From a virus, in IMG/VR virus record IMGVR_UViG_3300010342_001360, positions 1 to 25,576 of that record: a stretch of DNA of 25,576 nt. The stretch is one strand, 5' to 3'. The first letter of the stretch is position 1. Each line of letters begins with the position of its first letter. The notes below the pieces were generated by a model that made no database searches, had not been told where the DNA came from, and was given only the letters and a program-made list of their open reading frames with translations. The position numbers and the translations under genes are program-made. Shown here one piece after another: positions 6,106 to 24,147 of the stretch.

Positions 6106-6149
6106 CTCTACAATTACAAACAAACGATCTTTCATATTTTGATTTATAC

Positions 6150-6594
6150 GCCCCGTCCCACCGGCTACAAGAAAGGATGGCTCTATCATAATAGTGATCA
6201 TAAAGGGTAGATGCGCGGTGAAAGTCCGCGATGGGGTAGTCCTAAGGATACTCCTTCAGAAGGAGGTCCGAAGATGCCTGCCGACCAGAGCATGAGATGG
6301 TCCTCACCTATGAGCAAATAGGGGTTTTTTACGTTCTCGTTTTATCCTAAGAAAATGAGAGTACCGCTTCCACAGCGTGATAGGGGTCTGGCCACGAGAC
6401 TGATGCGGTGGTAGGGTTTTTACGTTTCTGATTTTTCAGCTTGGGGATTTTAAACCTTTCCCCTAAACAAAATCGGTGTACTGCAAGGTTCCGGCATATT
6501 GGACCTTTCGGCTAGCTTCAGTCAATGTAGGAATGGCATCCGTGAGCAAGAGCAACCAGCGCAAGGTTCTCGGGGGGGAAGATTAAACTTCCCC
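6150..6594 (+). ncRNA. Large ornate structured ncRNA candidate (~445 nt; GOLLD/ROOL-like context)
   Basis: GC-richer, no ORF, own promoter and terminator, many hairpins, and two repeated GGGTTTTTACGTT-hairpin-GTACYGC modules. Confidence 0.6.
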
Positions 6595-6605
6595 TTTTCT
6601 TTTTT
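6575..6605 (+). terminator. Intrinsic terminator
   Basis: GGGGAAG-ATTAAA-CTTCCCC followed by TTTTCTTTTTT. Confidence 0.75.
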
Positions 6606-6662
6606 ATCGTTCTTCGAATATTTGTCATAATCTAGGGCGTTTGCGAAGATATATAAACTAAA

Positions 6663-7292
6663 ATGTATATTTGCAAATGCGGGAGGAAATTTGAAAAACA
6701 AAATTCTTTAAATGCCCATTTTTCTCATTGTTTAATTCATAGAAATGGAAAAATTCCTATAAATCGTTTTAAGGGAAGGGAAAATTGGAATAAGGGGCTT
6801 AAAAAAGAAACTGATGAAAGAGTTCAAAAATATTCGAAATCATTAAAGGATTCTTTAAATAGTGGAAAGGTTATTCCGAGTTTTTTTGGGAAACATCATT
6901 CAAATAAAACCAAAGAAAAGCTTAGTTTAATTCAAAGCACTTCTCATAAAGGGGGATACTGCAAATGGATTCCATACCAAAAGGGGGATAAAATAATTTA
7001 TCTTCAAGGATCCTGGGAATTTAAATATGCCCAATATTTGGACTCATTAAATTTGAAATGGATTAAACCCGGGAACGGAGATTTAAAATATTCTTTTTTC
7101 TGGATGGATGACTTGGGAATTAAAAGAATTTATACCCCGGATTTTTATATCATAGATTATAATCAATATATTGAAATAAAAGGATATTGGAGAGAAAATG
7201 ATAGAATTAAAATGAAAAAAGTCCTTGAACAAAATAAAATATCTCTTCAAATTCTTGAAAAGAAAGATTTAAAAAATCTTAATTTATTGTAA
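6663..7292 (+). CDS. PD-(D/E)XK-type free-standing endonuclease with N-terminal Zn-finger-like and NUMOD3-like segments
   Basis: CKCG..HFSHC, FFGKHHSNKTKEKLS, SWE..YA, YTPDFYI...YIEIKGYW. Confidence 0.72.
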   Translation: MYICKCGRKFEKQNSLNAHFSHCLIHRNGKIPINRFKGRENWNKGLKKETDERVQKYSKSLKDSLNSGKVIPSFFGKHHSNKTKEKLSLIQSTSHKGGYCKWIPYQKGDKIIYLQGSWEFKYAQYLDSLNLKWIKPGNGDLKYSFFWMDDLGIKRIYTPDFYIIDYNQYIEIKGYWRENDRIKMKKVLEQNKISLQILEKKDLKNLNLL

Positions 7293-7294
7293 TC

Positions 7295-7381
7295 GCCCTC
7301 GTGATGGAAATGGGTAGACATACCAACCTCAAAAGTTGGTGCTTATAAAATAGCGTGTGGGCTCGAGTCCCACCGAGGGCA
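7295..7381 (+). tRNA. trnL: tRNA-Leu(CAA), T loop CTCGAGT
   Basis: Acceptor GCCCTCG/CGAGGGC, anticodon arm CCAAC-CTCAAAA-GTTGG, long variable arm. Confidence 0.9.
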
Positions 7382-7578
7382 CGACAGTGACAACAGGTTC
7401 CAGCCTGGTGCAAAATTGACTATAATAATAGGATGATGAGATTAATCTGGACGTATCATCCTTGCCACTGTTTCTTTTTATAACCAACATGTCCTTAATC
7501 TTTTAACCTACATTTAACAAAACTTATTTTCGTTTATAAGAAGATGAAGGGGACTTCAAAAACTGAATAATTGATTAA

Positions 7579-7613
7579 GAAGGGGCTATCGTCAATTTAG
7601 CCCCTTCTTTTTT
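7579..7613 (+). terminator. Intrinsic terminator
   Basis: GAAGGGGCT...AGCCCCTTC followed by TTTTTT. Confidence 0.75.
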
Positions 7614-7705
7614 ATTTTATGACATTTTGTCGATAAATAAGGATCGGCATAATTATCGGAAGATATATATTATTTAAGGGATATTTTTAATTAAAAAACA
7701 AAATT

Positions 7706-8080
7706 ATGAAAAAACCATTTTATTACTAGATTCATTCAAAACTTATCGTCATTACAAGACGAGATTTAGCCCCAGGAATTCAGGCTGTACAAGCTGCTCA
7801 TGCGGCAATTGATTTCCAGCATCAACATTCTTCTATTGCTCGAGAATGGAATATAAATTCCAATTATCTCATTTTCTTATCTGTACAAGACGAGCAAGAA
7901 CTCAAAAGATTTATTCAAAAATTTCAGATTTATGGTCTTAACCATACAGTCTTTGCTGAACCCGATTTAGATAATCAGGTTACTGCTGTTTGTGTTGAAC
8001 CATCTGAAAGAACTATGAAATTATGTTCTCATTTACCTTTGGCACTCCGTGAATTTAACGGGTCTTTAACGCAAGGGTAA
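7706..8080 (+). CDS. Pth2-superfamily (peptidyl-tRNA hydrolase-like) protein with in-frame TAG at codon 8 (missed by the ORF track)
   Basis: Translates as MKKPFYY*IHSKLIVITRRDLAPGIQAVQAAHAAIDF...YLIFLSV...FAEPDLDNQVTAVCVEP...LCSHLPLAL. TAG at 7727-7729. The V.R.DL..G..A.Q.AHA and EPDL...TAV motifs are intact. Confidence 0.8.
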
Positions 8081-8118
8081 TGAGATTTTTTGTATATTTA
8101 AATTAAAATTTTTGAACT

Positions 8119-8148
8119 ATGGAACACTAGATTATTAGACCGCCTTAA
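8119..8148 (+). CDS. Amber-interrupted micro-ORF MEH*IIRPP-stop (putative leader peptide)
   Basis: ATG GAA CAC TAG ATT ATT AGA CCG CCT TAA, downstream of a TATATTTA box (8093-8100) and an A/T-rich leader. Confidence 0.45.
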
Positions 8149-8150
8149 CC

Positions 8151-8222
8151 ATGAATTATTTTATTTAGACATTAAATGGACATAAAATATGGACATTTGG
8201 ACATCAATCAGGTCAACTTTAA
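8151..8222 (+). CDS. Amber-interrupted micro-ORF MNYFI*TLNGHKIWTFGHQSGQL
   Basis: ATG 2 nt after the previous stop, TAG at 8166-8168, internal repeat I*T..GH / IWTFGH. Confidence 0.4.
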
Positions 8223-8249
8223 TTTTTTAACTCAAATAAAATAATAATC

Positions 8250-8582
8250 ATGGAAACTTTAACTATCAATAAAATTGCAATTAACGCTTTAAAAAGCGAT
8301 ATTAAAAAACTTTCTGAAGAGCAGAAATTTTTAAGAAATCAGAGAAAGACAGTTTACATCAAAGGGGAAAGAACAATGGAACCTTGGGTAGCTGCCATGA
8401 AACACAGGGCTAACAGAGAAAAATTAAGAATCATGTTTGCTGCTTATGGTTTAATGAGAGGAAAATCTTTAGAACAAATTGAACTAAAGTCATCTAAGGA
8501 AAACTCTATTAAAAACTTTCTACCTCAGGTAAGTAAAACTATTGAAACTTATAACAAATTATCAGATGAGTTACAAAAGTGA
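8250..8582 (+). CDS. Hypothetical phage protein (110 aa, basic, helical)
   Basis: Full ORF with A-rich leader. No function recognised. Confidence 0.8.
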   Translation: METLTINKIAINALKSDIKKLSEEQKFLRNQRKTVYIKGERTMEPWVAAMKHRANREKLRIMFAAYGLMRGKSLEQIELKSSKENSIKNFLPQVSKTIETYNKLSDELQK

Positions 8583-8730
8583 TTTCAAAAAAAGGGAGCT
8601 CGAACAAGAGCTTGCAGAGGAAGAGCGAGAAATCCTTGAAGAAGAAAAAAAGTTAACTACGGAAGAACTTCGTAAAAAAAGGCGTCAGGAGATAGAGGAT
8701 GAAATACGGAGAGAACAGGCCGGATGGTAA
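8566..8730 (+). CDS. Small highly charged hypothetical protein (54 aa)
   Basis: ATG 8566 overlaps the upstream gene end. E/K/R-rich, coiled-coil-like. Confidence 0.6.
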   Translation: MSYKSDFKKRELEQELAEEEREILEEEKKLTTEELRKKRRQEIEDEIRREQAGW

Positions 8731-8736
8731 TAACAA

Positions 8737-8775
8737 GCATGGACATTATCATAGACACGATGTCCATGCTATTTT
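8737..8775 (+). terminator. Terminator-like or processing hairpin directly before the suppressor tRNA
   Basis: GCATGGACAT/ATGTCCATGC 10-bp stem followed by TATTTT. Confidence 0.5.
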
Positions 8776-8847
8776 GGTTGTGTAGTTCAGTGGTTAGAAC
8801 AGAGGTCTCTAAAACCTTATACGCGGGTTCGACCCCCGCCGCAATCA
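8776..8847 (+). tRNA. Amber suppressor tRNA (anticodon CUA)
   Basis: Acceptor GGTTGTG/CGCAATC plus A73, D arm GTTC-AGTGGTTA-GAAC, anticodon arm GAGGT-CT-CTA-AA-ACCTT (anticodon 8809-8811), T arm GCGGG-TTCGACC-CCCGC. Confidence 0.92.
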
Positions 8848-8913
8848 CAATTTTTTATTAAAACTTCAATAAAATAAGCCATACAAAGAATAAATAAAAT
8901 AAATAAACTACGT

Positions 8914-9261
8914 ATGGAATATTTAACTACTGAAACTTTCAAAGAGAAAGTTTTTAATTTTGAAAGCGAATCCGAATTTAAGGTAACAAAACCCACAATA
9001 ATTGATTTTTATGCTGATTGGTGCGGCCCTTGCAAGACTATTGCTCCAATATTAGAAGATCTATCTAAAGAATTTGAAGGAAAAGTAGACATCTATAAAG
9101 TAAATGTAGATGAGAGTCATGAATTAGCTGGTGCATTTAATATTAGAAGCATACCTGCCCTTCTTTTTGTTCCTATAGAAGGTAAAGCTCAAATGATGGC
9201 AGGGGCCCTTCCTAAAACTTCTTTTAAGAAAGCCATTAAAGATATTTTTCACATTGAATAA
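8914..9261 (+). CDS. trxA: Thioredoxin
   Basis: IDFYADWCGPCK, KVNVDE, IRSIPAL. Confidence 0.95.
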   Translation: MEYLTTETFKEKVFNFESESEFKVTKPTIIDFYADWCGPCKTIAPILEDLSKEFEGKVDIYKVNVDESHELAGAFNIRSIPALLFVPIEGKAQMMAGALPKTSFKKAIKDIFHIE

Positions 9262-9467
9262 TGTCTATCTTTGAAAAAATATTAAAACCCTCTGGATCAG
9301 AAAAATTCTGGCAGGAGATGTCTTTAGAAGATCGAAGAAGACTTCTTGAATCCCATAATCTTTGGCAGGGGGCTAACACATATTTTTGGCAATATTTGCC
9401 TAAGGAAATTAGGGATCGAGTTGAAGAAGAATATCAAAAACTCGTCGATAAGTCCAGATTTGAATAA
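9261..9467 (+). CDS. Hypothetical protein
   Basis: TAATG overlap with thioredoxin. Confidence 0.7.
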   Translation: MSIFEKILKPSGSEKFWQEMSLEDRRRLLESHNLWQGANTYFWQYLPKEIRDRVEEEYQKLVDKSRFE

Positions 9468-9512
9468 AATTAGATTTTATATATAATTAAAATTTAACAA
9501 TTTTTTAACAAG

Positions 9513-9549
9513 AAAATATTTTTTTCTATAGAACTTTTGGTTACATTTG
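9513..9549 (+). promoter_or_regulatory. Bipartite promoter for the Y-like RNA/Ro60 unit
   Basis: AAAATATTTTTTT...TACATTTG(CTCTA). Shares TTTAACAAGAAA and GCTCTA flanks with the promoter at 6069-6105. Confidence 0.6.
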
Positions 9550-9577
9550 CTCTATAGAAACTAACAAAGAATTTTTA

Positions 9578-9641
9578 GTTGTAGTAAGAAAAGAGTTACT
9601 TCGATGGCAATTTGAAAAACGCTCTTTTCAGGTTTCTCAAC
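9578..9641 (+). ncRNA. Y-RNA-like element, copy 4 (minimal, no tRNA module), upstream of Ro60
   Basis: GTTG/CAAC and a perfect GAAAAGAG/CTCTTTTC helix with the shared GTAGTAA and AGAGTTACTTCG motifs. Confidence 0.7.
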
Positions 9642-9679
9642 ATTAATTTGCATACTTTTTTAATTTTTAATTTATATGC

Positions 9680-9715
9680 AAGCCCGAGAAACCCTTAGTT
9701 GATCGGGCTTTTTTT
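9680..9715 (+). terminator. Intrinsic terminator
   Basis: AAGCCCGA...TCGGGCTT followed by TTTTT. Confidence 0.75.
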
Positions 9716-9735
9716 GTTAACTTAAAAAGAATAAA

Positions 9736-9867
9736 ATGACAAACGAAATGACCGAGGAACATAAAAAAGCTATTAGCGAAGCAAATAGGGGGAAAACAAA
9801 AAGAAGAAACCCAATGACAGAAGAACATAAAAAAGCTATCAGCAAAGCAAAATTAAAAACCAAATAA
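9736..9867 (+). CDS. 43-aa protein made of two NUMOD3-like repeats (possible endonuclease remnant; missed by the track)
   Basis: MTNEMTEEHKKAISEANRGKTKRRNPMTEEHKKAISKAKLKTK. Confidence 0.55.
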   Translation: MTNEMTEEHKKAISEANRGKTKRRNPMTEEHKKAISKAKLKTK

Positions 9868-9877
9868 TTCTTTATAT

Positions 9878-9907
9878 TTAAACTTAAACTTAAACTTAAA
9901 CTTAAAT
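9878..9907 (+). repeat. Hexamer tandem repeat (TTAAAC)x4 + TTAAAT
   Basis: Seen directly in the Ro60 leader. Confidence 0.85.
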
Positions 9908-9917
9908 TTAATAGTAA

Positions 9918-11618
9918 ATGGCTAAGTACAACACCAAGAGGGAAATTTCTCTCGCAGACCAGAAGAGCGGAGTTGAAAAGACTACTACTCACCAGGGCGG
10001 ACAGGGTTACACCCAGCGTCCAGAAGCGGAACTTATCGGTATCCTCGCAACGGGTATGGGTAACAACTTTTACGAAAAGGAAACTGAACGTGAAAAGAGG
10101 TTCCGTGATGTTCTCGACAAGGTTGCAAAGGTTAACAAGCTTTTCGCAGCTAAGGCACTTATTTACGCTCGTACTATTTTTGGACAGCGTTCCGTTACTC
10201 ACTTCGGTGCAGTTGAAATGATTCCTCACCTTCAGGGGGACCCACTTGCTAAGAAGTTCTTCACCAAGAGGGACAAGAAAGCAGAACGTGGCGGAATTAT
10301 CTGGAGGCTTGACGATATGGCTGAAATCCTTGCAGCATATTTTGCAAAGAATGGCCAGGAAGCATCTCTTCCTAACTCCCTCAAGAAGGGATTCAAGGAT
10401 GCTCTTGAACATGCTGACACTTACGAACTTGCTAAGTACCAGATGAAGAATAGGGGTGTATCACTTGTTGACATTGTCAACCTTGTTCACCCAGTTGAAA
10501 CTCCTAAGAATGGTTTCATCTATATTCCTGAACAGGATTACCTCAAGGCAACTGCTGGAACAAAGTTCGTTGGCAAGGAATACCAGAAGAACGAAAAGGG
10601 CGAAGTCCAGGTTCCTGCACTCCGTGCTCTCGTACTCGGAATTCTTAAGCAGTTCAACACCGTTGAAGATAAGAATACTGAAGCTGGTAAGGTTGTAGCT
10701 GAAAAGGTTAAGAGCGGAGAAATCACTCAGGAACAGGCAGCAGCTCAGCTTAACGAAGCTAAGACTGAAAACTACAAGGAACTCATCGAAACCAAGAAGA
10801 TTGGTTACCTTGCACTTCTTCGTAACATCAGGAATATTCTTAAGACTAACGATACAGTTCTCCTTGACAAGGCGTGCGAACTTCTTGTCGACCAGAATTT
10901 CATCCGCAAGTCACTTGTTTGGCCTCACCAGATTGACCTTGCTCTCGAAGTAATGTTAATCGAATTCAATGGTCGTCAGCTCCAGAAGATTGCAGCAGCT
11001 CTCGATGAAGCTTATGAAAAGTCAATCCCTAACCTTTCTCAGCTTCTTCCAGAAGGAAAGACTGCAGTTGTCTTTGACACTTCAGGTTCTATGGAAGGCG
11101 GATGGGGCGGTGGAATCAAGATTGATGGCAAGCCAAGCAACTCTCGCCCAGTTGATAAGGCAGCTCTTATCGCAGCAACTTTTGCTAAGGGTACCGGCGG
11201 AGACGTCTACCATTTCGGCTCAACTTGCTCGGTTATTAAGGGATGGAATCCAAATGATGCCATCAACACTCTTAAGAAGAGTTTTGCTCGTCATATCGGA
11301 GAATGCGGTCATGGTACTGTTTATTCATCTATTCTTCCTGAACTCGAAAGAGTTGGAGGTGGATACGACAGGATTCTTATCATCACCGACGAACAGGGTG
11401 CAGATTCTTTCGAAGATACCTACAAGAGGTATTCTGGAAAGTATGGAACTCCATACGTTTACTTCATTAACATTGTAGGCTACGGCCCAACAATGGCTAA
11501 GGCTGGAAACAAGGTATTCCGTCTCTTCGGATACTCTGCAGACATCTATGAAAAGATACCTCACTTGGAAATGAACATCAACGAAGTTATCGATGCAATT
11601 AACCGTATCGAAATCTAA
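9918..11618 (+). CDS. rsr: Ro60/Rsr-like RNA-binding protein (TROVE domain + vWA domain)
   Basis: TTHQGGQGY, FYE, KALIYAR...RSVTH, YELAKYQ, DIVNLVHP, YLALLRNIRNI, MIDAS DTSGS, ILIITDEQ, FGYS. Confidence 0.92.
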   Translation: MAKYNTKREISLADQKSGVEKTTTHQGGQGYTQRPEAELIGILATGMGNNFYEKETEREKRFRDVLDKVAKVNKLFAAKALIYARTIFGQRSVTHFGAVEMIPHLQGDPLAKKFFTKRDKKAERGGIIWRLDDMAEILAAYFAKNGQEASLPNSLKKGFKDALEHADTYELAKYQMKNRGVSLVDIVNLVHPVETPKNGFIYIPEQDYLKATAGTKFVGKEYQKNEKGEVQVPALRALVLGILKQFNTVEDKNTEAGKVVAEKVKSGEITQEQAAAQLNEAKTENYKELIETKKIGYLALLRNIRNILKTNDTVLLDKACELLVDQNFIRKSLVWPHQIDLALEVMLIEFNGRQLQKIAAALDEAYEKSIPNLSQLLPEGKTAVVFDTSGSMEGGWGGGIKIDGKPSNSRPVDKAALIAATFAKGTGGDVYHFGSTCSVIKGWNPNDAINTLKKSFARHIGECGHGTVYSSILPELERVGGGYDRILIITDEQGADSFEDTYKRYSGKYGTPYVYFINIVGYGPTMAKAGNKVFRLFGYSADIYEKIPHLEMNINEVIDAINRIEI

Positions 11619-13400: not shown

Positions 13401-13952
13401 ATGATGAAATATAGAATGTATTTTTTTGTTCCTTATAATATATCTCCTATTCAGCAGGCGATACAGGCAGGACATGCAGCATTAGAATATGCTTTTCGTT
13501 ATTATAACCCAGTTGAAGGAGAATTGATTAGTTTTATGACAAATGATAAAACCTGGATTATTCTTAATGGGGGAACTACTAATAAAAATTTTACTACAGA
13601 AGACGGTTTCCCCCCTCAAAGAATAGGATCCTTAAATGCTATAATGGATAGTCTTGAAGAAAAAGGAATACAATATTCTTTCTTTGAGGAACCTGATCTT
13701 AATGATGCTCTTACGGCAGTTTGCTTCCTTGCAGATGAAAGAGTTTGGGAAATCAAAACATATCCGGATTTAGCAGATTATATCTTACATAATCTTGTGA
13801 TGGCGGACAATGAATATGTCTCAGTAAAATCAATGAGAAAAGAACAACTTATCGAGGAATTTCCTGGGCTTTATAACAAATGGAAAAAACTAATAGGAGG
13901 GGAAAGTAATGAATTTTTAAGAGATCTAATCAGAGGAAAAAAATTAGCATAA
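13401..13952 (+). CDS. Pth2-superfamily protein (phage type)
   Basis: YFFVPYNISPIQQAIQAGHAA, KTWIILNGG, FEEPDLNDALTAVCF. Confidence 0.7.
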   Translation: MMKYRMYFFVPYNISPIQQAIQAGHAALEYAFRYYNPVEGELISFMTNDKTWIILNGGTTNKNFTTEDGFPPQRIGSLNAIMDSLEEKGIQYSFFEEPDLNDALTAVCFLADERVWEIKTYPDLADYILHNLVMADNEYVSVKSMRKEQLIEEFPGLYNKWKKLIGGESNEFLRDLIRGKKLA

Positions 13953-17250: not shown

Positions 17251-18126
17251 ATGAATTACGAACTTGCAGTAAATAACATTCGCGGGGAATTAAAAAAATA
17301 TCTCCAGAAAACAAATCTTAAATCTCTTGTTATTGGAATATCTGGAGGTATAGATAGCTGTCTCTGCGCAGCCTTAGCTCGCCCTGTTTGCGATGAATTG
17401 GGAATAGCTTTAATAGGCAGAAGCCTTCCTATTAAAACAAATGAAGAAGATGAACTCTTTAGGGCAAGGGAAACCGGAGAAGCTTTTTGCACTAATTTTA
17501 AAGAGGATAGAATTCTTGAGGTTTATTATGATAGAATGTCTTCAGAATTAAACCCCCAGATAGATAACCAGGAAATGCAAAAATGGAAGATCCGTAATGG
17601 CAATATGAAAGCGAGATTACGTATGACTTACCTATATAATCTTGCTTCCATGAATAATGGAATGGTCCTTTCAACTGATAATTTAACTGAATATCTTCTT
17701 GGATTCTGGACACTTCATGGTGACGTTGGCGATTTTGGAATGATACAAAACCTTTGGAAAACAGAAGTGTATAACATGGCTGAATGGATTGCAGATAATT
17801 ATCCTAATCCTTCTTCAAATCCAAAAGCGATTAATGCTATTCGGACAACAATCCAAGCTATGGCAACAGATGGTCTGGGGGTAACTAATTTAGGAGATTT
17901 AGGCCAGATTCTTTCTGACTGGCGTGGAACATCAAGAGAAGGATATAAAGAGGTTGATAGGGTCCTTCAGGTTTGGACTTCTATGCATACTCTCGAATCT
18001 ACTCAGAAAACAATTCTTACCTTAGCTTATGAAAAACATCCGGTAATTCAAAGGCATTTAAATTCGGATTTTAAAAGAGAAAACCCTCAAAACATAAATA
18101 GGAACTTAATATGGACGACTTCTTAA
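17251..18126 (+). CDS. nadE: NH3-dependent NAD+ synthetase
   Basis: VIGISGGIDS, GNMKARLRM, STDNLTE..LGFWTLHGD, LWKTEVY, ATDGL. Confidence 0.93.
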   Translation: MNYELAVNNIRGELKKYLQKTNLKSLVIGISGGIDSCLCAALARPVCDELGIALIGRSLPIKTNEEDELFRARETGEAFCTNFKEDRILEVYYDRMSSELNPQIDNQEMQKWKIRNGNMKARLRMTYLYNLASMNNGMVLSTDNLTEYLLGFWTLHGDVGDFGMIQNLWKTEVYNMAEWIADNYPNPSSNPKAINAIRTTIQAMATDGLGVTNLGDLGQILSDWRGTSREGYKEVDRVLQVWTSMHTLESTQKTILTLAYEKHPVIQRHLNSDFKRENPQNINRNLIWTTS

Positions 18127-20170: not shown

Positions 20171-20430
20171 AAGATTTACATTACTTAAGAATTCAATTTC
20201 TTCTTTGGTTAAAGGGGAAAAAAGTTCGGGATTGGATGACCTGGGGGACTTATGGAAAAAATGGGGATCAGCCTCTAAAATGGGTAATTCTCAAAAATAT
20301 GAGTGACGAACATATTCAAGCCATCCTTGATACTCAATTCCATATCGGGGGATTTTATAGGAGGCATTTTAATAAAGAACTCCAATTAAGAAAAAAATAT
20401 CCTAAATTTTCAATTAAAGAAACGAAATGA
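20167..20430 (+). CDS. Hypothetical protein
   Basis: ATGA overlaps on both sides. Confidence 0.75.
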   Translation: MKDLHYLRIQFLLWLKGKKVRDWMTWGTYGKNGDQPLKWVILKNMSDEHIQAILDTQFHIGGFYRRHFNKELQLRKKYPKFSIKETK

Positions 20431-21353
20431 ACATACAAACAATTTCAATCGTAGTTCCAACAAGGGGATGCGTTAATAAATGTCCCATTTGTGTTTCTCG
20501 GATGCATGAAAATAATTATGAAAATTCATTCGACGAATTCAAAATTACCCAGAGAATAAAATGGGCCGTTATGAATGGAATAAACACCTGTATCATAACA
20601 GGAACAGGAGAGGCTTTTCAGAATTTCCATTTCCTTGGCCGTCTTGCAGATATTTTCCGTAAAATGAATCACCCGTTTCCTAATATTGAATTCCAAACAA
20701 CCGGTGTTATGCTTGATGAATGCGATGAAGCTATTAATGGAAAAACGGGTAACATCGAAAACAAATATCATAATTTAGCACTTCTTAAAGAATTGGGAGT
20801 TAGTACAATTTCTCTTTCTGTTTCAAATGTTTTTGATTCAGCTAGAAATGCAGATCTTATTGTAATGCCTGAGAAAATGAGATTCCTCCTTTCTGAAAGA
20901 TGCAGACTTATTAAAAATTCAGGTTTTAATCTACGGCTTTCTCTCAATATGTACGAAGAATATGATAATTATCATCCTTCACAAATTATAGAAGCCTGTA
21001 AATCCCTTGGAGCAGATCAAGTTACTTTCCGTAAATTATATCACGGAGATGACGATTCAGATCAAACAAAATACGTTCAAAAACATTCATGTACAGACGA
21101 AACACTCTATAATATCAAGTGTTATATTCAAGGAAGATTGTTTGAAAAGGAAGGGGGATTTAAGCCGGGGAGGGGAAAACTCCTTTATAAACTTCCTTTT
21201 GGAGCCTTTGTTTATTCAATCGAAGGAATGAGCACCGTTATTGATGATGATTGCATGTCGAAAGAAAATAATGAATCATTAAAATATGTTATCCTTAGAG
21301 AAAATGGAAAACTCTATTCTCAATGGGATGACGAGGGATCTTTAATATTTTAA
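20427..21353 (+). CDS. Radical SAM enzyme
   Basis: CVNKCPIC (CxxxCxxC), ITGTGE motif, QTTG. Confidence 0.88.
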   Translation: MNIQTISIVVPTRGCVNKCPICVSRMHENNYENSFDEFKITQRIKWAVMNGINTCIITGTGEAFQNFHFLGRLADIFRKMNHPFPNIEFQTTGVMLDECDEAINGKTGNIENKYHNLALLKELGVSTISLSVSNVFDSARNADLIVMPEKMRFLLSERCRLIKNSGFNLRLSLNMYEEYDNYHPSQIIEACKSLGADQVTFRKLYHGDDDSDQTKYVQKHSCTDETLYNIKCYIQGRLFEKEGGFKPGRGKLLYKLPFGAFVYSIEGMSTVIDDDCMSKENNESLKYVILRENGKLYSQWDDEGSLIF

Positions 21354-22219: not shown

Positions 22220-22963
22220 ATGCAAATTTATAAAATAATAAACACTATTAATCAAAAGTGTTACGTAGGAAAAGATAAGAATAATCGAAAAGATTATTTT
22301 GGTTCGGGAAAAATAATTAAAAATGCCATTAAAAAATACGGAAAGGAAAACTTTAAAAAAGAAATAATTCAGGAATGTTTTTCTTTAGAAGAATTAAATG
22401 AACAAGAGATTTTTTGGATTAATGAATTAAACACGATTATACCCAATGGATATAATATATCAAAAGGCGGAGACGGAGGTGATACAATTTCTAAAAATCC
22501 AAATAAAAAAGAAATTATAGAAAAACAAAAAAATACAAAAAAGCAGAAAGGTATAGGCAAAGGTGAAAAAAATCCCAGTTTTGGAAAACATTTATCCAAA
22601 AATCATAAAGAAAAAATATCAAAAAGCATAAAGCTTTTATATGAAACAGGAAAAATAGAACGCTATAGAATGACTGATGATGGGAAGAAAAAATTAAGCA
22701 AACGGATGAAAGAAAAATGCCCTACCAAAACACCAGAAGGTAGAATTAAAAATAGAGAAAATAATTTAGGAATAAAAAATCCTAATGCACACATATATGA
22801 ATTTATTTCTCCTAATGAAAAAATATTTAAAGTAAAAGGAAATATAAAACAATTTTGTAAATTAAATAAAATATCTTATAAACGTATAATCAAAATCTAT
22901 AATACAGATAATAACGTTGAAGGATGGAAATGTAAAAAAATATCTAAAGTACGTAACAATTAA
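22220..22963 (+). CDS. GIY-YIG homing endonuclease with NUMOD3-like repeats
   Basis: QIYKIINTINQKCYVGKD...YFGSG, GYNISKGGDGG, NPSFGKHLSKNHKEKIS. Confidence 0.9.
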   Translation: MQIYKIINTINQKCYVGKDKNNRKDYFGSGKIIKNAIKKYGKENFKKEIIQECFSLEELNEQEIFWINELNTIIPNGYNISKGGDGGDTISKNPNKKEIIEKQKNTKKQKGIGKGEKNPSFGKHLSKNHKEKISKSIKLLYETGKIERYRMTDDGKKKLSKRMKEKCPTKTPEGRIKNRENNLGIKNPNAHIYEFISPNEKIFKVKGNIKQFCKLNKISYKRIIKIYNTDNNVEGWKCKKISKVRNN

Positions 22964-22974
22964 TACATAACACT

Positions 22975-24147
22975 ATGATAATCAAATCTTTACTTGACAA
23001 TGACCTTTATAAGTTTTCGATGGATTTTGCTATTTTAAAACTTTTTCCTACGGCAAAGGTCAGGTATAAGCTTTTTTTGCGGTCAGAGGTTGAATTCCCT
23101 GATGGGTTTGCCGAAAAATTAAGAGAAGAAATCAAATTAATGGAGAGTTTAAAACTATCTCCTCAGGAAAAAGATTTTTTTATTAAAAGATGCCCATATA
23201 TCGACCAGTCATATTTTGATTTTTTAGAAGGATATAGATATAATTCCTCTGAAGTCGGAATAATACAAGATGGAGGCAAATTAGAATTAAATATTGAGGG
23301 GTGGTGGTTTAGAGTCGTGCTTTGGGAAGTCCCTCTTATGGCTCTCATATCAGAGCTTTATTTTAAAATGACTTTCCATTCCATATACGATGAAACAACC
23401 CGTAGAGATACAAACCAGAAGAAAGCAGCTATTTTTAATTATGCAAATATCAAAGTAGCGGATTTTGGAACTAGAAGGAGATTTTCTTATGATGTACAAA
23501 AAGAAATGGTAGAGGACCTAAGCAACCGAATGCGAAAAGGCTTATTCGTGGGTACTTCAAACGTTCATTTGGCACATCTTTATAATTTAACTCCTATAGG
23601 AACTGAAGCTCATGAATGGTTTATGTTCCATGCTGCAAAATATGGATTTCAGATGGCAAATGAACTCGGTCTTAAACATTGGGCAGATGTTTACAATGGA
23701 AGTCTTGGAACTGCACTTGCAGATACTTTCACAACAGAAGCATTTCTTAAGGCCTTCAATATGAAATACGCTAAGTTGTATGATGGTGTTCGTCAGGATA
23801 GCGGGGATCCATTCGAATTTGCTGATAAATTCATTGCACATTATAAAAAATTAGGGATCGATCCTTTATCCAAAACCATCGTATTTTCTGATTCCTTGGA
23901 TCCGGATACTGCTAAGGATATTCAAAATTACTGCATCGGAAAAATTAAATGCTCCTTTGGAATTGGAACAAATTTATCCAATGATGTTGGGGTAACTCCT
24001 TTGAATATGGTTATAAAAATGAGTGCAGCAAAACCAACTCCAGAAGATGAATGGATTCCTACTATTAAATTATCTGATGTAGCAGGAAAACATACCGGGG
24101 ATGTTAAAATGATTGAAGTTTGTAAGTATCTTTTAAACATAAAATAA
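22975..24147 (+). CDS. pncB: Nicotinate phosphoribosyltransferase
   Basis: SLLDNDLYKFSM, DFGTRRRFS, GTSNV, GTEAHEW, LADTF, GVRQDSGDP, IVFSDSL, FGIGTNL, IKLSDVAGK. Confidence 0.95.
   Translation: MIIKSLLDNDLYKFSMDFAILKLFPTAKVRYKLFLRSEVEFPDGFAEKLREEIKLMESLKLSPQEKDFFIKRCPYIDQSYFDFLEGYRYNSSEVGIIQDGGKLELNIEGWWFRVVLWEVPLMALISELYFKMTFHSIYDETTRRDTNQKKAAIFNYANIKVADFGTRRRFSYDVQKEMVEDLSNRMRKGLFVGTSNVHLAHLYNLTPIGTEAHEWFMFHAAKYGFQMANELGLKHWADVYNGSLGTALADTFTTEAFLKAFNMKYAKLYDGVRQDSGDPFEFADKFIAHYKKLGIDPLSKTIVFSDSLDPDTAKDIQNYCIGKIKCSFGIGTNLSNDVGVTPLNMVIKMSAAKPTPEDEWIPTIKLSDVAGKHTGDVKMIEVCKYLLNIK

What the first reader, a model, noticed from the sequence alone, without database searches (positions are those of the whole stretch)
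8776..8847. Amber suppressor tRNA with a Trp-like body but non-Trp acceptor end
Seen: anticodon loop CT-CTA-AA in a canonical cloverleaf. Its D and anticodon arms (TAGTTCA..GGT.AGAACAG.GGTCTC.AAAACC) resemble bacterial tRNA-Trp with CCA changed to CUA. The acceptor has G1-C72, G2-U71 and A73 rather than the G73 of Trp. Established: U35 amber suppressors are often charged by GlnRS or LysRS. The inserted amino acid is therefore open. A 10-bp hairpin immediately upstream may control its transcription or processing.
Basis: partly seen in the sequence, partly recalled or inferred. Interest (0 to 1): 0.8.

Follow-up and report, generated by a model that had tools for sequence, protein, structure and literature searches.

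The report
Phage amber-suppressor tRNA gating neighbouring genes
This is a real UAG-reading (amber suppressor) tRNA in a fragment of a giant phage that otherwise uses the normal genetic code; its apparent job is to let ribosomes pass a deliberately placed early UAG in the neighbouring peptidyl-tRNA-hydrolase-like gene and in a tiny leader gene, an arrangement kept in about two dozen distant phages.

Summary
Window 8776-8847 is a canonical 72-nt tRNA with anticodon CUA (8809-8811), G1-C72, G2·U71 and A73. It scores best of the 14 tRNA-family matches in this phage tRNA array.

The "Trp-like body" is not supported; no isotype stands out. The inserted amino acid remains open and probably does not matter.

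The lineage is not stop-codon recoded. A complete 425-kb relative and sampled regions of nearer relatives are densely coding in the standard code.

The tRNA belongs to a conserved module:
- The Pth2-like gene just upstream (7706-8080) starts ATG-(0-7 codons)-TAG in 24 sequence-distinct lineages. Each has a CUA tRNA or tRNA-like gene nearby, mostly within 2.6 kb.
- These include cultured Tenacibaculum phage pT24 and published 462- and 735-kb phages.
- A mini-leader (8119-8148, MEH-UAG-IIRPP-stop) is kept in 13 lineages.
- In the 425-kb genome the Pth2-like gene is the only credible gene needing UAG read-through.

Best reading: a dedicated suppressor that gates its neighbours' translation. All of this is inferred from sequence; nothing is experimental. 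I found no paper describing it. This scan has reported the same module before on other DNA.

The parts
8776..8847 (+). tRNA with anticodon CUA (amber suppressor); anticodon at 8809-8811; A73 at 8847; CCA not encoded
   Evidence: ARAGORN; Rfam 67.5 bits; minimum-free-energy cloverleaf; family covariation
8736..8770 (+). 12-bp hairpin (palindrome GCATGGACA..TGTCCATGC) followed by UAUUUU, ending 5 nt before the tRNA; terminator-like, or an operator or processing element
   Evidence: Fold. A hairpin at the same position occurs in relatives: the sequence is conserved in L008, L011, L016 and L021, and an unrelated GC stem plus T-run replaces it in L013 and L014. The motif occurs only here in the window.
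7706..8080 (+). Pth2-like (PF01981) gene whose only ATG precedes an in-frame TAG at codon 8 (7727-7729): MKKPFYY-UAG-IHSKLIVITRRDL...; proposed main client of the suppressor
   Evidence: Translation; Pfam E 3e-8; PDB profile hits to Pth2 at E 3.5e-10; early TAG conserved in 24 lineages, each with a CUA tRNA nearby
8119..8148 (+). Mini-leader ORF MEH-UAG-IIRPP-stop (TAG at 8128-8130); the stalling-type Pro-Pro-stop ending is reached only after UAG read-through; proposed second client
   Evidence: Conserved as M-x(1-4)-TAG-I-x-R-(G)-P-P/T-stop in 13 lineages
8092..8102 (+). Conserved GTATATTTAAA box about 17-27 nt upstream of the leader ATG (promoter-like; inferred)
   Evidence: Present upstream of the leader in window, L008, L011, L016 and L021
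8250..8582 (+). Conserved 110-aa gene of unknown function that follows the leader (METLTINKIA...); no family match
   Evidence: tblastn homologues after the leader in 11 loci; no Pfam or PHROG hit
8542..8730 (+). 62-aa charged ORF between the 110-aa gene and the hairpin; found only in the closest clade
   Evidence: tblastn hits only in window and L008

Best explanation
The element is a functional, phage-encoded amber-suppressor tRNA in a giant phage that otherwise uses the standard genetic code. It is one part of a conserved small module. That module holds a Pth2-like hydrolase gene whose reading frame is blocked by a UAG a few codons after its only start codon. It also holds a tiny leader ORF whose Pro-rich, stalling-type ending lies behind another early UAG, then a conserved 110-aa gene, a terminator-like hairpin and the tRNA(CUA) itself. 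Proposed mechanism: once the tRNA is transcribed, processed, given its CCA end and charged by a host synthetase, it competes with RF1 at these early UAGs. Full-length Pth2-like protein is then made, and ribosomes on the leader run on to the Pro-Pro-stop ending, where a pause could change expression of the downstream genes. Expression of the module would thus be gated by, or proportional to, suppressor activity. The UAGs lie in unconserved leader positions, so which amino acid is inserted is probably irrelevant; by analogy with E. coli amber suppressors, Lys or Gln is the most likely. Shown here: the tRNA and its covariation, the standard code of the lineage, and the conserved early UAGs and their co-occurrence with the tRNA. 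Inferred: expression, charging, read-through, and any regulatory purpose.
For: A canonical tRNA with an invariant CUA and strong compensatory covariation. A36-A37-A38 is nearly invariant (21 of 25); from established knowledge this is the context for i6A37 modification, which aids decoding of UNN codons. The lineage uses the standard code. There is no coding-density gain with TAG as sense in 22 loci. The TerL region of the complete 405-kb relative is 96% coding, with no in-frame TAG and with 2 of 14 genes ending in TAG. The whole 425-kb relative has density 0.898 against 0.899, and TAG ends 49 of 604 ORFs. A 20-kb region of the 133-kb nearer relative is 95% coding. Pth2-like genes start ATG-(0-7 codons)-TAG in 24 sequence-distinct lineages down to 31% identity and from 23% to 61% GC. 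Each has a CUA tRNA or tRNA-like gene nearby: 22 lie within 2.6 kb, and in two of those only my covariance model detects it (29 and 42 bits; the 29-bit copy has several non-paired acceptor positions). LR756501 has two about 2.4 kb away, and the 425-kb genome has one 5.7 kb away. The codon after the TAG varies (ATT, ATA, GTT, GTA, CTT, AGC, ACA), so no conserved restart codon exists. It starts with a purine in 23 of the 24 lineages, and purine after UAG is the classical favourable context for suppression. Relatives lacking the Pth2-like gene also lack the CUA tRNA in the DNA fetched (L010, L012, L017, L018). A GC-rich homologue with a normal start has no CUA tRNA (L039). Genome-wide in the 425-kb phage, the Pth2-like gene is the only credible early-TAG gene, and the TGA and TAA controls give only background. 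The leader M-x-TAG-I-x-R-(G)-P-P/T-stop is conserved in 13 lineages.
Against: Nothing is experimental: transcription, CCA addition, charging and read-through are all untested. Two lineages (L051, L053) keep the CUA tRNA beside a Pth2-like gene that has a normal start and no TAG, so the link is not only gating. TAG still ends about 4-8% of phage genes and presumably many host genes, so a strong suppressor has a cost. In 15 of the 24 lineages the codon after the TAG is ATT or ATA, a possible weak start, so termination-reinitiation cannot be excluded for those. Two of the tRNA copies (L041, L043) are structurally degenerate. The Pth2-like family lacks the Lys that I recall as catalytic in archaeal Pth2, so its activity is uncertain.
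Confidence: 0.68

Rival explanations
1. The phage uses genetic code 15 (TAG as sense) in late or other genes that are not in this 25.6-kb fragment, and the tRNA serves that general recoding, as in Lak and crAss-like phages.
For: Suppressor tRNAs are strongly associated with TAG-recoded phages (Borges et al.). TAG is rare as a terminator in this clade (6 of 139 ORFs against 38 for TGA). The window's own genome is incomplete.
Against: Coding density shows no gain with TAG as sense in any locus. The TerL region of the 405-kb relative has no in-frame TAG. The full 425-kb relative has identical densities and TAG as a normal stop in 49 ORFs. The 133-kb nearer relative is 95% coding in code 11.
Confidence: 0.05
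2. It is a general-purpose suppressor without dedicated clients. It would either be a pre-recoding intermediate, acquired after TAG stops became rare, or a host-takeover device that makes host ribosomes read through UAG stops. On this view the nearby TAGs are secondary.
For: Borges et al. propose this path and saw suppressor tRNAs in standard-code relatives. TAG terminators are depleted in the near clade. L051 and L053 keep the tRNA next to a Pth2-like gene without a TAG. A Pth-type enzyme could mop up the consequences of read-through.
Against: It does not explain why one gene family carries an early TAG in 24 independent lineages, nor why a leader with the same design is conserved in 13. In the 425-kb relative TAG is no rarer than TGA.
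Confidence: 0.13
3. The short ATG..TAG stretches are true minigenes that terminate at UAG, and the Pth2-like ORF is translated by re-initiation at the adjacent AUU or AUA. On this view the tRNA is not needed for them.
For: ATT or ATA follows the TAG in 15 of the 24 Pth2-like lineages and in most leaders. Two- to four-codon minigenes are classically linked to peptidyl-tRNA drop-off and Pth (lambda bar minigenes; from established knowledge).
Against: In the other lineages the next codon is GTT, GTA, CTT, AGC or ACA, none of which is a start codon. The rival leaves the strict co-occurrence with a CUA tRNA unexplained.
Confidence: 0.07
4. It is not a decoder but a tRNA-like RNA, for example a partner of the neighbouring Ro60/TROVE protein in the manner of YrlA, or a decoy for a host nuclease.
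For: It lies about 1 kb upstream of a Ro/TROVE gene, and this synteny holds in many relatives. Bacterial Y RNAs mimic tRNA (established knowledge).
Against: It is a complete canonical cloverleaf with a 7-nt anticodon loop, and the anticodon is invariant while the stems covary. The tRNA follows the Pth2-like gene, not Ro, in loci without Ro nearby (L034-L055, pT24). There is no Y-RNA family hit.
Confidence: 0.04
5. It is a pyrrolysine tRNA, as ARAGORN's label says.
For: Only the CUA anticodon.
Against: The label rests on the anticodon alone. No pylS or pylBCD-type domain appears among the window proteins scanned.
Confidence: 0.01

Closest known systems
Suppressor tRNA(CUA) of stop-codon-recoded phages (code 15: Lak, crAss-like, Garnet, Amethyst and others; Borges et al., bioRxiv 10.1101/2021.08.26.457843; Peters et al., PMC9523058)
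   Same: A phage-encoded CUA tRNA in a low-GC phage whose host uses the standard code. In-frame UAG is proposed as a way to make genes depend on the phage's own tRNA.
   Different: Here the genome is standard-coded. Only one gene family plus a leader carry the UAG, always within the first few codons and in unconserved positions, so this is a gate on a few genes rather than a code change.
Standard-code relatives of recoded phages that have acquired a suppressor tRNA (Borges et al., Fig. 3A)
   Same: A standard-code phage with a suppressor tRNA and rare use of the matching stop codon.
   Different: Those cases were TGA suppressors read as a step towards recoding, with no specific client genes. 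Here the clients are identifiable and conserved across very distant lineages.
Orphan CUA suppressor tRNAs of Xanthomonas jumbo phage XacN1 (PMC5852040)
   Same: A standard-code jumbo phage with CUA tRNAs and a Pth-type gene. The authors could not find target genes.
   Different: The XacN1 homologue of this family is the C-terminal domain of a 279-aa ORF without any stop, and its CUA tRNAs lie in the terminal repeats. It is therefore not the same module.
prfB (RF2) autoregulation through an early in-frame UGA
   Same: An early in-frame stop codon in a translation-factor-type gene makes its synthesis depend on how that stop is handled.
   Different: prfB uses a +1 frameshift and senses RF2 itself. 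Here a dedicated tRNA is supplied in cis, and no frameshift is needed.
RAPP/RGPP regulatory arrest peptides (ApdA, ApdP, ApcA; PMC7897499, PMC10951233, PMC12992588)
   Same: A short upstream ORF ending in Arg-(Gly)-Pro-Pro-like residues just before a regulated gene.
   Different: The window's leader ends IIRPP-stop, not R-A/G-P-P. It has only 8 sense codons and can be read only after UAG suppression. It is not linked to Sec or YidC genes.
E. coli su+7 (tRNA-Trp with CUA, charged with Gln) and other engineered amber suppressors
   Same: A class-I tRNA with CUA. Charging by GlnRS or LysRS through U35 is the usual outcome in E. coli (established knowledge).
   Different: No specific similarity to tRNA-Trp. 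The discriminator is A73 here and varies (A, G or U) within the family.

Membership tests
Canonical elongator tRNA (Rfam RF00005) | Cloverleaf with 7/4/5/5-bp stems, supported by covariation | tested here: met
   67.5 bits. The minimum-free-energy fold is the cloverleaf. 96.8% of cells are paired, 18 of 21 pairs have double changes, and 0 of 500 shuffles reach this.
Canonical elongator tRNA (Rfam RF00005) | Conserved tertiary nucleotides (U8, A14, G18-G19, U33, T54-Psi55-C56) | tested here: met
   T8, G10, A14, G52-T53-T54 and G56-A57 are invariant in the alignment numbering; GG is present in the D loop and GTTCGA in the T loop.
Canonical elongator tRNA (Rfam RF00005) | Expressed, given CCA and aminoacylated | not testable with these tools
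   CCA is not encoded. No expression data are available.
Amber suppressor tRNA | Anticodon CUA in a 7-nt loop with U33 and a purine at position 37 | tested here: met
   CU-CUA-AA at 8807-8813. CUA is invariant in 25 family members, and the loop is CUCUAAA in 18 of 25.
Amber suppressor tRNA | In-frame UAG codons that need it | tested here: met
   Early TAG in the Pth2-like gene (24 lineages) and in the leader (13 lineages). Actual read-through was not tested.
Code-15 (TAG-recoded) phage system | Many genes, especially late genes, interrupted by in-frame TAG; coding density rises when TAG is read as sense | tested here: not met
   Relatives were tested; the window's own genome is incomplete.
Code-15 (TAG-recoded) phage system | TAG aligned with Gln in conserved proteins | tested here: inconclusive
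   The only TAGs lie in unconserved leader positions with no aligned residue in homologues.
tRNA-Trp-derived suppressor (su+7 type) | Body closer to tRNA-Trp than to other isotypes | tested here: not met
   The best E. coli hit is tRNA-Asn and is not significant. Trp ranks 14th of 19 isotypes. Trp scores 51.7 bits against Arg at 61.9 and Met at 56-58.
tRNA-Trp-derived suppressor (su+7 type) | G73 discriminator of bacterial tRNA-Trp | tested here: not met
   A73 in the window; in the family A 16, G 6, U 3.
tRNA-Pyl (pylT) | Atypical pylT architecture and pylS/pylBCD genes | tested here: not met
   The architecture is canonical. No such domains appear among the proteins scanned. The pylT features are recalled from memory.
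Pth2 peptidyl-tRNA hydrolase (PF01981), for the neighbouring gene | Sequence membership above the curated cut-off, and similarity to solved Pth2 structures | tested here: met
   34.3 bits against a cut-off of 23. PDB profile hits 24bt, 1rzw, 2zv3 and 1q7s at E 3.5e-10 to 3e-8.
Pth2 peptidyl-tRNA hydrolase (PF01981), for the neighbouring gene | Catalytic residues and peptidyl-tRNA hydrolase activity | tested here: inconclusive
   The invariant E-P-D aligns with the canonical D-A-G. The Lys before the QxxHAA helix is not conserved. Residue roles are recalled from memory, and activity was not tested.
RAPP/RGPP arrest peptides, for the leader | C-terminal R-A/G-P-P motif | tested here: not met
   The window has IIRPP-stop. 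Relatives have IRPP, NRPP, IRGPT and NRGP. Stalling was not tested.

The most novel reading that the evidence does not exclude
The tRNA(CUA), the early-UAG Pth2-like gene and the UAG-gated, Pro-rich leader form a self-contained translational switch in standard-code giant phages. The module's proteins would be made only while the phage's own suppressor is active. Through the leader and the terminator-like hairpins, suppressor activity may also feed back on transcription of the downstream genes, including the tRNA itself. This would be a natural single-operon use of a stop codon as a regulatory codon, and it is testable in cultured Tenacibaculum phage pT24.
Probability: 0.4. Interest if true: 0.85.

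Novelty: new variant of a known kind. Interest (0 to 1): 0.68.

Why it matters
Phage suppressor tRNAs have so far been explained by whole-genome or block-wise stop-codon reassignment. Where they occur in standard-code phages, such as XacN1, their targets have been called unknown. Here the targets can be named: a Pth2-like gene and a mini-leader that keep a UAG within their first codons across very distant large phages.

If the gating is real, it is a compact natural example of a dedicated tRNA used as a gene-expression key. It gives a concrete function to 'orphan' suppressors in jumbo phages. It points to a possible first step towards stop-codon recoding. It also explains why gene callers truncate or miss these genes: pT24's CDS is mis-started, and database entries read the TAG as Q. 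The link to a peptidyl-tRNA-hydrolase-type enzyme suggests a connection between stop-codon read-through and tRNA recycling or ribosome rescue during infection.

Tried and rejected
1. General TAG recoding: rejected.
2. Trp-like origin: not supported. No isotype could be assigned, and the identity positions vary within the family.
3. Sinorhizobium phage phiM12/M7/M19 'tRNA-TERM', the best annotated BLAST hits: these are ochre (UUA) suppressors with an unrelated neighbouring gene, so they are not the same module.
4. XacN1 and Stenotrophomonas RAS14: their homologues are C-terminal domains of longer ORFs without stops, so they are not the module.
5. HDV-like/theta ribozyme or Y RNA next to the tRNA: no Rfam match in 7300-9950 even at E <= 1.
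6. The GCATGGACA motif as a window-wide regulatory word: it occurs only at the two hairpin arms.
8. Other early-TAG genes: none recurrent in 13 loci or in the 425-kb genome. An in-frame TAG just upstream of NadE has a canonical ATG two codons later, so I treat it as incidental.
9. The 110-aa and 62-aa ORFs gave no Pfam or PHROG match.
10. One contig (for P0007) had no retrievable DNA.

Full report
**1. The observation**

- ARAGORN finds 12 tRNA genes on the + strand of the window. The last one, at 8776-8848, has anticodon cta.
- Rfam's tRNA model matches 8776-8847 at 67.5 bits, the highest of its 14 tRNA matches in the window.
- The sequence gives the anticodon loop CU-CUA-AA at 8807-8813, so the anticodon is at 8809-8811.
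- The acceptor stem GGUUGUG/CGCAAUC gives G1-C72, G2·U71 and U3-A70, with discriminator A73. No CCA is encoded.
- The region 8725-8870 folds into a 12-bp hairpin (8736-8747 with 8759-8770) followed by the cloverleaf, z = -3.3.
- The ARAGORN label 'Pyl' reflects only the anticodon. The molecule has an ordinary architecture: GG in the D loop, GTTCGA in the T loop, a 5-bp anticodon stem and a short variable loop.

**2. What the window is**

- The window is the whole contig held for this assembly.
- It is a + strand accessory region of a large phage.
- The tRNA array (85-8848) is interspersed with GIY-YIG/NUMOD3/HNH homing endonucleases.
- It also holds two SiaC-family genes, a Ro60/TROVE gene (9918-11618), thioredoxin, NadE, a radical-SAM protein and a nicotinate phosphoribosyltransferase.
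- Relatives in IMG/VR include a complete 405-kb genome with terminal repeats, and contigs of 133, 66, 59 and 52 kb. The lineage is therefore a megaphage.

**3. The tRNA is under selection as a UAG reader**

- A CUA tRNA sits at the equivalent position in relatives whose Ro protein is only 63-84% identical.
- Twelve diverged copies average 67% identity, yet C34-U35-A36 is invariant.
- 17 of 20 RNAalifold pairs show compensatory changes.
- On the full cloverleaf, 96.8% of cells pair, against 31-50% when partners are slid. 18 of 21 pairs have double changes, and no shuffle out of 500 reaches the observed values.
- Independent contigs from several samples carry the identical anticodon arm, which excludes a read error.
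- A36-A37-A38 is kept in 21 of 25 members. From established knowledge this is the context recognised for i6A37 modification of tRNAs that read UNN codons.

**4. The lineage is not recoded**

- Across the window and the first 22 fetched loci, reading TAG as sense raises ORF coverage no more than the TGA control does.
- In the complete 405-kb relative, TerL is an uninterrupted 655-aa frame.
- The 18 kb around that TerL are 96% coding in code 11, with no in-frame TAG and two genes ending in TAG.
- A 425,361-bp contig deposited as a 'Pacearchaeota' MAG carries the same module and 53 tRNAs, and is evidently a megaphage. I fetched it whole.
- In that contig, coding density is 0.898 (code 11), 0.899 (TAG as sense) and 0.899 (TGA as sense). 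Terminators are TAA 502, TGA 53 and TAG 49.
- In-frame joins of two ORF halves are rarer for TAG (7) than for TGA (26) or TAA (95).
- A 20-kb region far from the tRNA array in the 133-kb nearer relative is 95% coding in code 11.
- In the near clade TAG is a scarce terminator: 6 of 139 ORFs, against 38 for TGA. In the window itself the only two TAG-ending ORFs overlap tRNA genes.

**5. The clients**

A first-stage note on the same window pointed to a Pth2-like ORF with an early TAG, and I tested it.

*The Pth2-like gene*
- Window 7706-8080 reads MKKPFYY-TAG-IHSKLIVITRRDL....
- It matches Pfam PTH2 above the curated cut-off.
- As a family profile it matches solved archaeal and human Pth2 structures at E 3.5e-10 to 3e-8.
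- No canonical start follows the TAG for 95 codons.

*Conservation of the early TAG*
- The gene lies next to the CUA tRNA in all relatives that have the tRNA.
- In each lineage it begins with ATG, 0-7 codons, then TAG. The leaders seen are MK\*, MKDT\*, MTH\*, MNN\*, MKNM\*, MT\*, MKET\*, MR\*, ML\*, M\* and MS\*.
- Searches seeded with the protein extended this to homologues of 31-59% identity, on contigs of 23-61% GC binned under many unrelated taxa.
- Published 462-kb and 735-kb phages (LR756500.1, LR756501.1) have it, as does cultured Tenacibaculum phage pT24.

*Tally*
- 24 sequence-distinct lineages have the early TAG, and each has a CUA tRNA or tRNA-like gene nearby.
- In 22 of them it lies within 2.6 kb. 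In two of those 22 (L041, L043) only my covariance model detects it, at 29 and 42 bits; the L041 copy has several non-paired acceptor positions.
- In LR756501 two CUA tRNAs lie about 2.4 kb away.
- In the 425-kb genome it is 5.7 kb away.
- Two lineages (L051, L053) have a normal start but still have the CUA tRNA adjacent.
- L039, XacN1 and RAS14 have a normal or fused gene and no CUA tRNA nearby.
- Ro-relatives without the Pth2-like gene (L010, L012, L017, L018) have no CUA tRNA in the DNA fetched.

*Context and specificity*
- The codon after the TAG is ATT or ATA in 15 of the 24 lineages. In the rest it is GTT, GTA, CTT, AGC or ACA, so there is no conserved restart codon.
- That codon starts with a purine in 23 of 24, and purine after UAG is the classical good context for suppression (from memory).
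- A systematic scan searched for an ATG within 12 codons upstream, then a stop, then at least 80 open codons with no nearby start. Only this gene recurs, both in 13 loci and in the whole 425-kb genome. The TGA and TAA controls give background only.

*The mini-leader*
- A second conserved client lies just downstream: the mini-ORF 8119-8148, MEH-TAG-IIRPP-stop.
- Thirteen lineages keep M-x(1-4)-TAG-I-x-R-(G)-P-P/T-stop at the same place.
- It is preceded by a conserved GTATATTTAAA box.
- It is followed by TGGACA-type hairpins or repeats, and then by a conserved 110-aa gene of unknown function.
- The Pro-Pro-stop or Arg-Gly-Pro endings recall RAPP/RGPP arrest peptides (PMC7897499, PMC10951233, PMC12992588). 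The window's motif is not R-A/G-P-P, so I do not file it there.

**6. The hairpin**

- A hairpin ends 4-6 nt before the tRNA in the relatives examined.
- In the nearer clades it is a sequence-conserved palindrome, GCATGGACA...TGTCCATGC, often with an extra direct copy.
- In L013 and L014 an unrelated GC-rich stem with a T-run takes its place.
- It therefore behaves like a terminator or attenuator, or an operator, that insulates the tRNA from upstream transcription. I could not decide between these options.
- No ribozyme or other Rfam family is present.

**7. Which amino acid**

- The short variable loop excludes the bacterial class-II types (Leu, Ser, Tyr).
- Body similarity gives no isotype.
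- Within the family, N73 is A, G or U. Pair 1:72 is mostly G-C. Pair 2:71 is G·U in 12 of 25. Pair 3:70 is U-A or C-G.
- G3·U70 (the Ala determinant) is absent. The U1-A72, G2-C71, G3-C70 and G73 set of E. coli tRNA-Gln is also absent.
- From established E. coli work, arbitrary class-I tRNAs given CUA are mostly charged with Lys or Gln through U35, and A73 favours Lys.
- The UAGs lie in unconserved leaders, so selection probably requires only that some amino acid be inserted.

**8. Mechanism and rivals**

- The best-supported reading is a dedicated suppressor that gates, or scales, translation of its neighbours.
- The two TAG-less lineages show that the tRNA and the Pth2-like gene are linked beyond gating. 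The enzyme may deal with products of read-through, or act on the suppressor itself. This is speculation.
- The rivals are hidden code 15, a general suppressor or pre-recoding intermediate, minigene plus re-initiation, a Ro-associated tRNA mimic, and pylT. They are weighed in their own sections of this report.

**9. Novelty**

- Suppressor tRNAs in recoded phages, and occasionally in standard-code relatives, are known.
- PTH2 and TROVE genes in jumbo phages have been noted, without any link to suppressors.
- The XacN1 authors could not find targets for its CUA tRNAs.
- The pT24 announcement does not discuss its suppressor.
- Six full-text searches found no description of the Pth2-like/early-UAG/tRNA(CUA) module.
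- Earlier reports of this same scan describe the same module on many other genomes. Their readings agree with mine, but they are not independent evidence.

Noticed in passing
window 9918-11618, with weak tRNA-model hits at 1427-1602, 2874-2925 and 5397-5462: A Ro60/TROVE gene lies beside the tRNA array, and three sub-canonical tRNA-model matches (29-34 bits) were not called by ARAGORN. They may be tRNA-like or Y-RNA-like modules, as a first-stage note suggests (e1-5813031).
   Followed up: no
window 13401-13952: A second, longer Pth2-like paralogue (about 25% identical; phrog_3668 'hydrolase') has a normal start and no TAG. It is conserved in relatives.
   Followed up: partly
window 17251-18126, 20427-21353 and 22975-24147: NAD synthetase, a radical-SAM protein and a nicotinate phosphoribosyltransferase cluster together, interrupted by a GIY-YIG homing endonuclease (22220-22963). 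This is a phage NAD salvage set.
   Followed up: no
window 4918-5340 and 5671-6048: Two SiaC-family (PF09345) regulatory phosphoprotein genes lie inside the tRNA array.
   Followed up: no
L056-L077 (G006:C1, 425,361 bp) and the contigs behind L047 and L051: Contigs of 171-427 kb deposited as Pacearchaeota, Methanobacterium and Thermoplasmatota MAGs look like mis-binned megaphages. The 425-kb one has 53 tRNAs, including a UCA (opal-reading) tRNA at c[8783,8856] as well as the CUA tRNA.
   Followed up: partly
L081 (Tenacibaculum phage pT24, LC168164.1 about 194,080-195,036): GenBank CDS BPT24_235 starts 81 nt inside the Pth2-like homology. The real frame opens with ATG-AAA-TAG further upstream. 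The phage has only four tRNAs, one of which is the CUA suppressor.
   Followed up: yes
L084 (LR756501.1, 735-kb phage), about 100 nt into the Pth2-like gene: There is a second in-frame stop inside the Pth2-like domain (…FAQEFP*IYEQW…), and two tandem CUA tRNAs lie about 2.4 kb downstream. I did not check which stop codon it is, or whether this genome is more widely recoded.
   Followed up: no
L021 1505-1580; L043 480-545; L041 3884-3957: Odd family members. One has C33 instead of U33, one has a D arm shortened to 7 nt, and one has several acceptor mismatches. The last two are missed by ARAGORN and by Rfam at its gathering score.
   Followed up: partly
window 8160-8215, and the region after the leader in L021, L034, L035, L044 and L046: TGGACA/TGTCCA repeats and palindromes recur between the leader and the 110-aa gene. 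They resemble the palindrome in front of the tRNA and may be a shared operator or attenuator motif.
   Followed up: partly
L010 5122-5193: A 72-nt tRNA with anticodon CGA (called Ser) has a class-I shape with no long variable arm. It occurs in the one close relative that lacks both the CUA tRNA and the Pth2-like gene.
   Followed up: no
protein database clusters P0002, P0004, P0014 and others: Public gene calls for this family often begin MKQ..., which means the TAG was silently read as Gln under code 15. Others are truncated to internal V, L or M starts.
   Followed up: partly
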